From Octopus vulgaris (lineage: Eukaryota): a stretch of DNA of 64,000 nucleotides. The position numbers and the translations under genes are program-made. The stretch spans positions 12,710,001-12,774,000 of the forward strand of contig OX597838.1 in the NCBI GenBank assembly GCA_951406725.2, in the 5' to 3' direction. Of this stretch, positions 24,112 through 43,166 are shown piece after piece. The first letter of the stretch is position 1; each line of letters begins with the position of its first letter. The notes beneath the pieces are model-generated. The model saw nothing but the letters and a program-made list of their open reading frames with translations. It had not been told where the DNA came from and searched no databases.

Positions 24112-24362
24112 ACCAGAGTAAACACATAAATGTGAAACAAGGTGGAAAAAAGAGTACTCAATTACCAGGGGTAGAGTAATATGCTTTATTTAAAAGCAGC
24201 AGAAATTCAACAAAACCTGTTACTCGGAGTTTCATGTTCCTGTTCGTCGGACAATTTTTCTTAAAAAAATTTTTTTTTTTAAACAAAAACTGTCCGAACG
24301 GGAATGTGAAACTCAGAGTAACAGGTTTTGTTGAATTTCTGCTGCTTTTAAATAAAGTATAT
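24112..24362. mobile_element. Penelope-like inverted pseudo-LTR remnant with a hammerhead-like motif on each arm
   Basis: ~80-bp inverted arms (24179-24259, 24285-24362). Each reads stem I-CCGA(CGA)-stem II-GAAA-CTCnGAG-TA-stem I, then AATAAA. Flanked by (TA)n; homolog at 61540-61770. Confidence 0.65.
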
Positions 24363-40989: not shown

Positions 40990-41020
<31 letters not shown>

Positions 41021-41237
41021 ATGTTTGTGTTTGTCTCCCTAGCATTGCTTGACAACCGATGCTGGTGTGTTTACGTCCCCGTCACTTAGCGGTTCGGCAA
41101 AAGAGACCGATAGAATAAGTACTGGGCTTACAAAAGAATAAGTTCCAGGGTCGAGTTGCTCAATCGACTGAAGGCGGTGCTCCAGCATGGCCGCAATCAA
41201 ATGACTGAAACAAGTAAAAGAGTATAGAGTAAAAGAG

Positions 41238-42238: not shown

Positions 42239-42334
42239 CTTGTTCTATTTCTATTCCTGAGCGCCATACTAATACATTTGTTTGTTTGTACTCCATCTGC
42301 CTTCGTCTTTTGTTTATTTTCGTAAACCTTCCCG

Positions 42335-42375
<41 letters not shown>

Positions 42376-42419
42376 CGGTGCCCCAGCATGGCCACAGCTC
42401 GTGAGCTGAAACTAGATAA

Positions 42420-42454
<35 letters not shown>

Positions 42455-42499
42455 AAAGTAAGATAGGGGTTATGAGGGTAACCCACTATGGGATATCAG

Positions 42500-42544
<45 letters not shown>

Positions 42545-42560
42545 CATACATACAAACAAT

Positions 42561-42673
42561 AATATGTTACTTTACTCGGTAGTCAAGATAAAACTCTGAG
42601 TTTCAGATGCCGAAGTGGAAATCCACAACACCATCTCTTCAGTTATCTTGACTATCGAGTAATGTAACATATT
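42561..42673 (-). ncRNA. Hammerhead-like motif closed by a 31-bp stem I
   Basis: Minus strand: 31-nt arm-CTGAAGA-GATG..GTGG attt CCAC..CATC-T-GAAA-CTCAGAG-TT-31-nt complementary arm (29/31 Watson-Crick). Confidence 0.65.
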
Positions 42674-42763
42674 ACATTTACAGATAAATTTCCTCTATTT
42701 ACATAATATTGAGGTCTCTTTCTTTCTTTTGTTATCTTACCGTTTTTACCATTATATATATAT

Positions 42764-43166
42764 ATTTTACTCATTTACTTGTTTCAGTCATTTGACTGCG
42801 GCCATGCTGGAGCACCGCCTTTAGTCGAGCAACTCGACCCCGGGACTTATTCTTTTTGTAAGCCCAGTACTTATTCTGTCGGTCTCTTATGCCGAACCGC
42901 TAAGTAACGGGGACGTAAACACACCAGCATCGGTTGTCAAGCAATGCTAGGGGAACAAACACAGACACACAAACACACATATATATATATATATACATAT
43001 ATACGACAGGCTTCTTTCAGTTTCCGTCTACCAAATCCACTCACAAGGCATTGGTCGGCCCGGGGCTATAGTAGAAGACACTTGCCCAAGATGCCACGCA
43101 GTGGGACTGAACCCGGAACCATGTGGTTGGTTAGCAAGCTACTTACCACACAGCCACTCCTGCGCC
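42764..43166 (-). mobile_element. SINE family A copy
   Basis: Full-length reverse-complement match. Confidence 0.92.

What the first reader, a model, noticed from the sequence alone, without database searches (positions are those of the whole stretch)
42561..42673. Hammerhead core clamped inside a 31-bp near-perfect stem
Seen on the minus strand: AATATGTTACATTACTCGATAGTCAAGATAA-CTGAAGA-[GATG...GTGGatttCCAC...CATC]-T-GAAA-CTCAGAG-TT-TTATCTTGACTACCGAGTAAAGTAACATATT. The canonical CUGANGA, GAAA and UH (GUU) sit exactly at the junction of the long stem. Stem III is ACTC-a-GAGT with a 1-nt loop, the same motif as in the 24-kb element, which suggests dimeric folding. One extra U precedes GAAA. Inference: the best-preserved ribozyme candidate here; a stem I this long is atypical for minimal hammerheads and could also be a Dicer or ADAR substrate.
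Basis: partly seen in the sequence, partly recalled or inferred. Interest (0 to 1): 0.72.

Follow-up and report, generated by a model that had tools for sequence, protein, structure and literature searches.

The report
Penelope retroelement stub with hammerhead relic
The hairpin is two head-to-head end pieces of a Penelope-like jumping gene sitting in a TA repeat, and its hammerhead motif is the known small ribozyme motif of such elements, which in this copy likely does not cut as a single molecule, so the finding is ordinary.

Summary
The sequence is exactly as described: a 31-bp stem with 29 of 31 positions paired, CUGAAGA, an extra U, GAAA, ACUC-A-GAGU and GUU. It is not a free-standing ribozyme. 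It consists of two 5'-truncated 3' ends of a roughly 2.58-kb Penelope-like element (PLE). The PLE carries the diagnostic motifs of the published 'Hydra' clade, and the insertion sits head to head in a (TA)n microsatellite. The long "stem I" is therefore an inverted duplication of the element's last 31 nt. The native helix I is only 6 bp (AGAUAA/UUAUCU).

The hammerhead motif has the architecture published for Hydra-clade PLE hammerheads, including the 1-nt "loop III" and a pyrimidine before GAA. Genome-wide, 3017 of 3087 exact 34-mers read CCGAAGA (U4 replaced by C). The window copy is the only one of 5 same-junction hairpins with CUGAAGA, probably through CpG decay. A second PLE family, present in the window at 24.2 kb, also has C at this position (3151 against 331).

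Rfam finds no hammerhead. A monomer cannot close helix III. I found no fossil sign of cutting at the predicted site. Verdict: a new member of a known kind, of low interest. The recurrent U4C core is the only mildly novel point.

The parts
42561..42673 (-). The reported 113-nt hairpin, made of two PLE 3' ends joined head to head
   Evidence: Nine loci in the genome match all 113 nt at 89-100% identity.
42561..42648 (-). Copy A: the last 88 nt of the PLE 3' region (query 26-113). It holds the native 6-bp helix I, the hammerhead-like core and the 3' terminus.
   Evidence: Most genome matches cover exactly query 26-113 at 97-99% identity. In them this stretch is preceded by native PLE 3' UTR.
42643..42673 (+). 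Copy B: an inverted copy of the last 31 nt of the same PLE 3' end. It overlaps copy A in the 6-nt AGATAA/TTATCT microhomology, so it is 25-31 nt long. It forms the 5' arm of the stem.
   Evidence: Arm identity to the reverse complement of 42561-42591 is 29 of 31.
42636..42642 (-). The CUGAAGA box. The U at 42641 is C in most family copies.
   Evidence: 3087 exact 34-mers; 70 of them have T; the window is the only T among 5 same-junction hairpins.
42606..42635 (-). Imperfect helix II (GAUGGUGUUGUGG-AUUU-CCACUUCGGCAUC)
   Evidence: Folds
42601..42605 (-). The extra U (42605) followed by GAAA (42604-42601)
   Evidence: 'tgaa' or 'cgaa' is the second core box in 19 of the 30 hammerhead rows shown.
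42592..42601 (-). Helix III word A-CUC-A-GAG-U plus U17. The predicted cut lies after 42592.
   Evidence: The same 'actc a gagt t' is listed for Penelope-3_HM. A 1-nt loop cannot close in a monomer.
42553..42560 (-). ATTGTTTG, the element's terminal ATTGTATA-type end (the proximal end class) abutting (TG/TA)n
42674..42682 (+). Linker ACATTTACA, an older-subfamily form of the ATTGTATA terminal word, belonging to copy B
   Evidence: The same word occurs in L025 and L057.
42683..42752 (+). PLE 'tail' of about 70 nt (GATAAATTTCC...CCGTTTTTACCA). It is the start of the 5' UTR of the next tandem unit and is attached to copy B.
   Evidence: It is the same sequence that follows the 3' end in the tandem array L065. 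It is present after 11 of 21 family ends. One search shows the shared flank stops here and excludes the SINE beyond it.
42501..42552 (.). (TA)n/(TG)n microsatellite, the target on the copy A side
42753..42766 (.). Short (TA)n, the target on the tail side, between the insertion and a tRNA-like SINE

Best explanation
The hairpin is a dead, doubly 5'-truncated, head-to-head insertion of the 3' end of a Penelope-like retroelement (PLE) into a (TA)n microsatellite, and its hammerhead-like motif is inherited from that element. By its protein motifs the element likely belongs to the published Hydra clade.

**Shown by sequence**
- Copy A is the last 88 nt of the element and ends ATTGT-(TA)n.
- Copy B is the inverted last 31 nt plus a 9-nt linker and a roughly 70-nt 'tail'. 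The tail is the beginning of the next tandem unit.
- The two copies meet in the 6-nt AGATAA/TTATCT complement, which is the native helix I.

**Inferred, by analogy with the published in vitro work on the Anolis PLE**
- The element's RT/GIY-YIG protein nicked both strands of the TA repeat.
- It primed reverse transcription on each strand from one of two internal start sites, one with the tail and one without.
- The two short cDNAs were joined at the helix I microhomology.

**Predicted**
- The 113-nt RNA, if transcribed, folds as a plain long hairpin.
- It would not self-cleave as a monomer, because helix III cannot close on a 1-nt loop and CUGA pairs with UCAG.
- Any cutting would need two molecules pairing through ACUCAGAGU, and probably the element's protein, as reported for other PLE hammerheads.
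For: **Family membership of the repeat**
- Most genome matches cover only query 26-113, and upstream they continue into shared PLE 3' UTR.
- L034 shows a GIY-YIG-like ORF end, then the 3' UTR, then the motif, with an inverted truncated copy upstream.
- The tandem array L065/L066 has a period of about 2.58 kb and open 717-aa frames.

**Hydra-clade features**
- The translation shows RWK, DKT, YKDD, CxCX5C (CSCRNKELC), CxxC and CxH. These match the description of the Hydra clade.
- The N-terminus visibly resembles Hydra-1_Obim in the paper's supplement.
- Pfam GIY-YIG matches below threshold: E = 0.014, 16.1 bits against a cutoff of 22.6.
- 840 homologs of about 700 aa were found, most of the 120 listed lying on contigs of about 2.3-3 kb.

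**Target and ends**
- All units are flanked by (TA)n. Hydra elements are reported to insert in (TA)n.
- There are two end classes, with and without the tail (11 of 21 with). This fits the two internal RT start sites that define the PLE tail.

**Inverted pairs**
- Variable head-to-head pairs are common, as published for PLEs.
- Both DNA strands are cleaved and extended in vitro.

**Motif**
- It has the same build as the published Hydra hammerheads.
Against: - No phylogeny was made, so clade placement rests on motifs read by eye and on a sub-threshold Pfam hit. Pfam gave no RT family at E<=10.
- The joining mechanism is inferred from one in vitro study of a different PLE clade.
- At least 5 loci share exactly the same 31/88 junction. 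The major subfamily gave no 31-nt inverted arm: 0 of the 8 hits, which listed only copies with a non-native base 17 nt upstream of the arm word. The hairpin may therefore have been copied as a unit rather than formed de novo at this locus.
- Nothing here shows whether the locus is transcribed.
Confidence: 0.85

Rival explanations
1. The locus encodes a working self-cleaving hammerhead whose long stem I is part of its design, cutting as monomer or dimer after GUU.
For: - The canonical CUGANGA, GAAA and UH are all present at the junction.
- The motif is related to PLE hammerheads, some of which cut weakly as dimers or with protein help.
- ACUCAGAGU can pair with itself over 8 bp with one A-A mismatch (read from the sequence).
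Against: - The stem is an inverted duplication seen at only about 5-9 of several thousand copies.
- The U4 is private to this copy among the same-junction hairpins.
- A monomer cannot close helix III. The conformation with the core single-stranded is 7.3 kcal/mol above the MFE.
- Rfam gives no hit at E<=10.
- Published PLE minimal hammerheads show no detectable monomer activity.
Confidence: 0.05
2. The roughly 215-nt unit (inverted tail, 31-nt arm, core, 31-nt arm) is itself a small non-autonomous derivative that the PLE machinery has copied several times as a unit. On this reading the window locus is a copy of a hairpin template rather than a de novo double insertion.
For: - Five loci share the exact 26-nt junction.
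- Nine loci match all 113 nt.
- Each lies in a different (TA)n tract with the same outer ends.
- They share minor-subfamily letters (ACATTAC/GTAATGT), and L003, L006 and L010 share further paired changes in both arms.
- The major subfamily gave no 31-nt inverted arm: 0 of the 8 hits, which lists only copies with a non-native base 17 nt upstream.
- Non-autonomous PLE derivatives (retrozymes) are proposed in print (abstract).
Against: - Other hairpins have different junctions, with arms of 19, 21, 22 and 35 nt in L005, L007, L004 and L008, so such structures also form anew.
- The core lies in either orientation relative to the tail (L003 against L006), which simple unit copying does not explain.
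- The window's two arms carry letters of two different subfamilies.
Confidence: 0.3
3. It is a MITE, a short DNA-transposon hairpin with terminal inverted repeats that happens to contain hammerhead-like words.
For: - Palindromic shape, AT-rich target and multiple dispersed copies.
Against: - The arms are letter for letter the 3' end of an RT/endonuclease-coding element with 5'-truncated copies and tandem arrays.
- The inverted-pair spacing varies from 10 to over 1000 nt.
- The tail is asymmetric.
Confidence: 0.02
4. The hairpin has been co-opted as a double-stranded RNA substrate: a microRNA or siRNA precursor, or an ADAR editing target.
For: - A 31-bp near-perfect stem.
- A weak hairpin-shaped match to mir-221 at 30.7 bits.
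Against: - The match is below the gathering score of 46.6, and many unrelated miRNA models hit the neighbouring TA repeats equally.
- There is no evidence of transcription.
- The paralogs are scattered neutral-looking insertions.
Confidence: 0.05

Closest known systems
Hammerheads of Hydra-clade Penelope-like elements (Craig, Yushenova, Rodriguez and Arkhipova 2021, PMC8557442; section 11, passages and supplementary files S1/S2 searched)
   Same: - The order is stem I, CUGANGA plus one letter, stem II, one pyrimidine plus GAA, a 4-bp stem III word with a 1-nt 'loop', one cleavage-site letter, then stem I.
- Penelope-3_HM is listed with 'actc a gagt t', and Hydra-1_oBim with 'ctgaagag ... gaa acca a tggt t'.
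- The motif lies near the 3' end of a <3-kb element with a single RT/GIY-YIG ORF that inserts in (TA)n.
   Different: - Most copies here read CCGAAGA rather than CUGAAGA.
- Helix II is longer (13 positions a side) and imperfect.
- The unpaired letter lies on the 3' side of helix II (GAUG/CAUC plus U).
- By eye the protein is related to Hydra-1_Obim but clearly not identical. I did not align them, since the paper's sequence was not typed into a tool.
Minimal hammerheads in PLE pseudo-LTRs (Cervera and De la Pena 2014, PMC4209133; parts 1-2 of 4 read)
   Same: - Short open helix I, large helix II with an unpaired letter, and a tiny near-palindromic helix III that implies dimers.
- Thousands of dispersed copies, with pairs on opposite strands 100-700 bp apart.
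- Low or no activity as monomers.
   Different: - Their unpaired letter lies between positions 9 and 10.1.
- Their descriptor required canonical boxes, so a CCGANGA family would have been missed.
PLE insertion architecture: inverted 5'-truncated copy plus 'tail' (Craig et al. 2021; Frangieh et al. 2024, PMC11167929, main text read)
   Same: - Head-to-head truncated copies and an optional extension at one end only.
- An AT-rich target.
- Two adjacent end classes, consistent with two internal RT start sites.
   Different: - The tail here is about 70 nt rather than 30-40.
- Both copies are extremely short (31 and 88 nt), which turns the insertion into a single hairpin.
U4C natural hammerhead variant of a viroid (cited in Perreault et al. 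2011, PMC3088659; discussion passage read)
   Same: - The same core position is changed to C.
- It is reported to lower activity in vitro considerably yet to suffice in vivo.
   Different: - That is a viroid type III ribozyme with tertiary contacts. Here it is the majority state of two retroelement families, and activity is untested.

Membership tests
Hammerhead ribozyme (canonical, as modelled in Rfam) | CUGANGA box | tested here: met
   Present in the window copy. It is absent from 4 of the 5 same-junction paralogs, and 3017 of 3087 exact 34-mers read CCGAAGA.
Hammerhead ribozyme (canonical, as modelled in Rfam) | GAAA box directly after the closing pair of helix II | tested here: not met
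   One extra U (42605) lies between CAUC and GAAA. This departure is itself usual in Hydra-clade PLE hammerheads, which read 'tgaa' or 'cgaa'.
Hammerhead ribozyme (canonical, as modelled in Rfam) | Three helices that can form in one molecule | tested here: not met
   Helix III would be ACUC/GAGU around a 1-nt loop. No fold forms it. The MFE instead pairs CUGA with UCAG.
Hammerhead ribozyme (canonical, as modelled in Rfam) | UH at the cleavage site | tested here: met
   GUU, with U16.1 at 42593 and U17 at 42592.
Hammerhead ribozyme (canonical, as modelled in Rfam) | Covariance-model score at or above gathering | tested here: not met
   There is no hammerhead family among 0 gathering hits in the window or among 41 hits at E<=10 in 42300-42900. 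Older canonical-core copies in L025 also gave none, so the models are blind to this subtype.
Hammerhead ribozyme (canonical, as modelled in Rfam) | Site-specific self-cleavage | not testable with these tools
   This needs in vitro transcription, or mapping of 5'-OH and 2',3'-cyclic phosphate ends.
PLE minimal hammerhead (Cervera and De la Pena 2014) | Lies in the repeat region of a PLE, next to an RT/GIY-YIG ORF | tested here: met
   In the family's longer copies the motif begins about 240 nt after the stop codon and ends about 40 nt before the unit end. The window copy is a fragment without an ORF.
PLE minimal hammerhead (Cervera and De la Pena 2014) | Short open helix I, large helix II with an unpaired letter, near-palindromic helix III | tested here: met
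   The native helix I is 6 bp. Helix II has 13 positions a side, imperfect, with an unpaired U. ACUCAGAGU is self-complementary except for its central A. The side of the unpaired letter differs from the paper's description.
PLE minimal hammerhead (Cervera and De la Pena 2014) | Compensatory changes in the helices across consensus families | not tested
   Copies are 97-99% alike within the young subfamily. I compared only three subfamily forms by eye and saw no clear compensatory pair.
Hydra clade of Penelope-like elements (Craig et al. 2021) | Short (<3 kb) element with one ORF ending in a GIY-YIG endonuclease | tested here: met
   Tandem period of about 2.58 kb and a 717-aa open frame. The GIY-YIG Pfam hit is below threshold at E = 0.014.
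Hydra clade of Penelope-like elements (Craig et al. 2021) | RWK motif, DKT in place of DKG, CxCX5C linker, CxxC and CxH around the endonuclease | tested here: met
   Read by eye in the translation (KRMRWKAFF, FSDKTKN, CSCRNKELC, CGLCDME, SCPHV) against the text. The absence of CCHH was not examined rigorously.
Hydra clade of Penelope-like elements (Craig et al. 2021) | Insertion into (TA)n | tested here: met
Hydra clade of Penelope-like elements (Craig et al. 2021) | Placement inside the clade on an RT tree | not tested
MITE (DNA-transposon hairpin) | Terminal inverted repeats of a DNA transposon with target-site duplication | tested here: not met
   The arms equal the 3' end of a retroelement. 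The unit is asymmetric, with a tail on one side only. No duplication can be discerned in (TA)n.
microRNA precursor | Score at or above a family's gathering threshold | tested here: not met
   The best hit is mir-221 at 30.7 bits against 46.6.

The most novel reading that the evidence does not exclude
The C at core position 4 (CCGANGA) is not decay. It is the selected state of the hammerhead in two separate, recently prolific Penelope-like families of this genome. On this reading the element keeps an attenuated or protein-dependent ribozyme, or has switched it off, and amplifies all the better for it. The window copy's 'perfect' CUGAAGA would then be a CpG-decay reversion in a dead fragment.
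Probability: 0.3. Interest if true: 0.55.

Novelty: new member of a known kind. Interest (0 to 1): 0.25.

Why it matters
The locus itself does not matter much. It is junk left by a known type of retroelement, and its striking stem is an insertion artefact. It is still a useful caution for ribozyme hunting, because the most canonical-looking hammerhead in a window can be a decayed copy of a family whose working members are non-canonical.

The family-level pattern is of some value to people who study Penelope-like elements:
- Two families have C at core position 4. One of them has thousands of near-identical copies and open reading frames.
- This adds genomic weight to the published in vitro result that hammerhead catalysis is not needed for PLE insertion.
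- It offers natural U4/C4 pairs for testing what these motifs do.

Tried and rejected
**RNA family searches**
- Rfam at gathering gave 0 hits on the whole window.
- Rfam at E<=10 around the locus and on older canonical-core copies gave only hairpin-shaped miRNA and snoRNA chance matches, driven by the palindromes and TA repeats, and no hammerhead.

**Protein searches on the 717-aa ORF**
- Pfam gave 0 families at E<=0.01 and only a sub-threshold GIY-YIG at E<=10.
- PDB sequence search gave one chance hit at E = 0.12.
- The large protein search gave 840 unnamed homologs and only one source name ('hypothetical protein'), so it did not name the family.

**Expression**
- No RNA holder was listed. 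All runs are Logan contigs whose 'RNA?' label is a guess.
- Laying four of them showed contigs over the whole unit, but that says nothing about transcription, ends or cleavage.

**Fossil of cutting**
- I asked whether inverted arms or truncated copies begin at the predicted cut site (query 83).
- In the major subfamily, only 8 copies carry a non-native letter 17 nt upstream of the 87-104 word, and none of them breaks at 83.
- The 30 U4 loci show junctions at many positions.
- The 31-nt arm's coincidence with the cut site is confounded by the helix I microhomology. I therefore rejected it as evidence of cleavage.

**Other**
- Covariation analysis was not attempted formally, because copies are too alike.
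- Earlier-findings look-ups by place and by sequence returned nothing.
- The dimer fold was not interpretable as printed and is not used.
- The MITE and miRNA readings were rejected, as set out under rivals.

Full report
**1.

- The two 31-nt arms pair at 29 of 31 positions.
- CUGAAGA, an imperfect helix II, one extra U, GAAA, ACUC-A-GAGU and a UU lie between the arms. The predicted cut falls between 42592 and 42591.
- The composite pattern occurs once in the window and in none of 100 shuffles.
- The fold is -53.1 kcal/mol, z = -10.6.

**2. It is a copy of a high-copy repeat, and the long stem is not part of that repeat**

A search of the window's own 2.8-Gb genome gave 967 first-look candidates.
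- Only 9 loci match all 113 nt.
- The rest match query 26-113, which is the 6-bp helix I, the core and the 3' arm, at 97-99% identity.
- In these copies the 88 nt are preceded by a shared non-palindromic sequence.
- Many loci hold two such ends head to head, with 10 to more than 1000 nt between them.

**3. The repeat is the 3' end of a Penelope-like element**

- L034 shows the end of a GIY-YIG-like reading frame, a 3' UTR and then the motif, with an inverted truncated copy upstream.
- On contig C1 the motif recurs every 2.58 kb or so. That array holds open frames of 717 aa.
- Read by eye against the published description, the translation carries RWK, DKT, YKDD, a CxCX5C linker, and CxxC and CxH around a GIY-YIG-like core. 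The unit is under 3 kb and all insertions lie in (TA)n. These are the marks given for the 'Hydra' clade of PLEs.
- That paper's supplement lists a 2507-bp Hydra-1_Obim from an octopus with a (TA)n preference and a visibly similar protein N-terminus.
- Tool support for the protein is thin.
  - Pfam gives only a sub-threshold GIY-YIG: E = 0.014, 16.1 bits against a cutoff of 22.6.
  - The 840 homologs of about 700 aa are unnamed.
  - No tree was made.

**4. Anatomy of the window locus**

- What looked like a shared 'SINE flank' next to the hairpin stops about 70 nt out.
- In the tandem array the same 70 nt follow the unit's end as the start of the next unit's 5' UTR. This is therefore the PLE 'tail'.
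- Of 21 family ends examined, 11 carry the tail and the rest run straight into (TA)n or other DNA.
- The window thus holds two copies.
  - Copy A (minus strand, 42561-42648) ends ATTGT-(TG/TA)n.
  - Copy B (plus strand, 42643-42673) carries a 9-nt linker and the tail up to about 42752, followed by a short (TA)n.
- The true tRNA-like SINE lies beyond that.
- The two copies overlap in AGATAA/TTATCT.

This matches two published accounts:
- the PLE architecture of an inverted 5'-truncated copy plus a one-sided tail;
- the in vitro finding that an Anolis PLE protein cleaves and extends both DNA strands and starts reverse transcription at two internal sites that delimit the tail.

That the window insertion arose in this way is inference.

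**5. The motif compared with known hammerheads**

- Rfam finds no hammerhead at gathering or at E<=10.
- It also finds none in older family copies with a canonical core, so this negative says little about PLE-type motifs.
- The table of Hydra-clade hammerheads in the 2021 supplement shows the same build: CUGANGA plus one letter, stem II, usually T or C before GAA, a 4-bp stem III word around a single letter, one cleavage-site letter, then stem I.
  - 'actc a gagt t' is listed for Penelope-3_HM.
  - 'ctgaagag' is listed for Hydra-1_oBim.
- Such minimal motifs are thought to act as dimers, and they showed no detectable activity as single motifs in vitro. The Anolis one cut only with protein present, and its catalytic mutants did not affect insertion.
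- In the window RNA the MFE pairs CUGA with UCAG. The conformation with the core unpaired is 7.3 kcal/mol less stable.

**6. The core letter**

| Word searched | Total | With C (CCGA...) | With T (CTGA...) |
|---|---|---|---|
| Family 1, exact 34-mer around the first box | 3087 | 3017 | 70 |
| Family 1, 16-mer (tolerates divergence elsewhere) | 6857 | 4136 | 2721 |
| Hairpin-specific 26-nt junction | 5 | 4 | 1 (the window) |
| Family 2, 15-mer | 3482 | 3151 | 331 |

- The T copies of family 1 mostly belong to more diverged subfamilies with other diagnostic letters. Of 30 T loci, 18 have C before GAAA, 10 have T and 2 are otherwise altered.
- An older canonical-core lineage thus appears to have given rise to a young, very uniform CCGAAGA lineage. 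The young lineage includes the array with open frames.
- The window's other letters are of the young type, so CpG decay of CCG to CTG is the likeliest source of its U4. Copies that combine T with the window's own T before GAAA exist (10 of the 30), so an ancestral T is not excluded.
- The second palindrome in the window (24170-24350) belongs to another PLE family. Its motif reads stem I CUGU, CCGACGA, ACG-GGAA-CGU, GAA, ACUC-C-GAGU, A, ACAG in 27 of 30 sampled copies.
- A U4C viroid hammerhead is reported to lose much activity in vitro yet to suffice in vivo. I saw no statement on PLEs with this core in the sections, passages and supplement files I read or searched, and the one literature search for the term U4C returned a single paper.

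**7. No fossil sign of cutting**

- The 31-nt arm starts exactly at the predicted 3' cleavage product. But that point is also the edge of the only 6-nt complement between the two cDNAs.
- In the major subfamily, only 8 copies have a non-native letter 17 nt upstream of the arm's inner word, and none of them breaks at that site.
- Other hairpins have arms of 19, 21, 22 and 35 nt.
- Junctions in the U4 sample are scattered.
- What does recur is a 5' end just upstream of helix I. In the first 100 of 2163 rows:
  - 6 loci show the perfect palindrome joined at GGCC;
  - 3 clear and 2 likely copies abut (TA)n at positions 19-27.
- This agrees with earlier notes of this scan on other genomes, which held that PLE stubs run from the transcript start to the internal RT start site. 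I did not test the transcript start.

**8. De novo or copied?**

- For copying of a small unit:
  - the same-junction hairpins share minor-subfamily letters;
  - three of them share further paired changes in both arms;
  - the major subfamily yields no such hairpin.
- Against simple copying:
  - the core lies in either orientation relative to the tail (L003 against L006);
  - the window's arms carry letters of two subfamilies.
- I leave this open at about 0.3 for unit copying.

**9. Verdict**

It is wrong about the stem and about this copy being a preserved ribozyme.
- It is a dead fragment of a known kind of retroelement carrying a known kind of motif.
- The only point beyond the literature I could read is the recurrent C at core position 4 in two abundant families. 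This may mean that catalysis is attenuated, or dispensable, in currently successful elements.

Noticed in passing
window 24170-24350: A second palindrome in (TA)n, formed by two head-to-head ends of a different PLE family (1919 first-look candidates). Its hammerhead-like motif reads CUGU / CCGACGA / ACG-GGAA-CGU / GAA / ACUC-C-GAGU / A / ACAG in the family. C at core position 4 outnumbers T by 3151 to 331.
   Followed up: partly
L003 (C7) against L006 (C8), hairpin units: Two hairpin units share the same diagnostic changes in both arms and linkers, but their central 51 nt lie in opposite orientation relative to the tail. This is a flip/flop pattern that simple copying does not explain.
   Followed up: partly
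genome-wide, first 100 rows (contig C1): Family copies often end or are joined 0-7 nt upstream of helix I. Six loci carry the perfect palindrome ...GGTTATCTGGCCAGATAACC..., and several stubs abut (TA)n at positions 19-27. This hints at a common RNA 5' end there.
   Followed up: partly
window 42768-43100 (minus) and 41000-41224 (plus): Two copies of a tRNA-like SINE in inverted orientation (arms 89-95% complementary). The PLE insertion sits in the TA tract that follows one of them.
   Followed up: no
G000:C1:57208700-57222800 (L065, L066): A tandem and inverted array of at least six units of the PLE with a period of about 2.58 kb. Two 717-aa frames are open and a third is split, so the family looks recently active.
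   Followed up: partly
G000:C2:206285912-206303475: Three same-strand copies of the motif spaced 8.5 and 9.0 kb apart. This is a larger repeat unit containing the PLE end, and ORFs were listed but not analysed.
   Followed up: no
one search run table: Near-identical words of the element (share about 0.8) are held by runs under four different coded organism labels. This could reflect related species or mixed samples and was not pursued.
   Followed up: no
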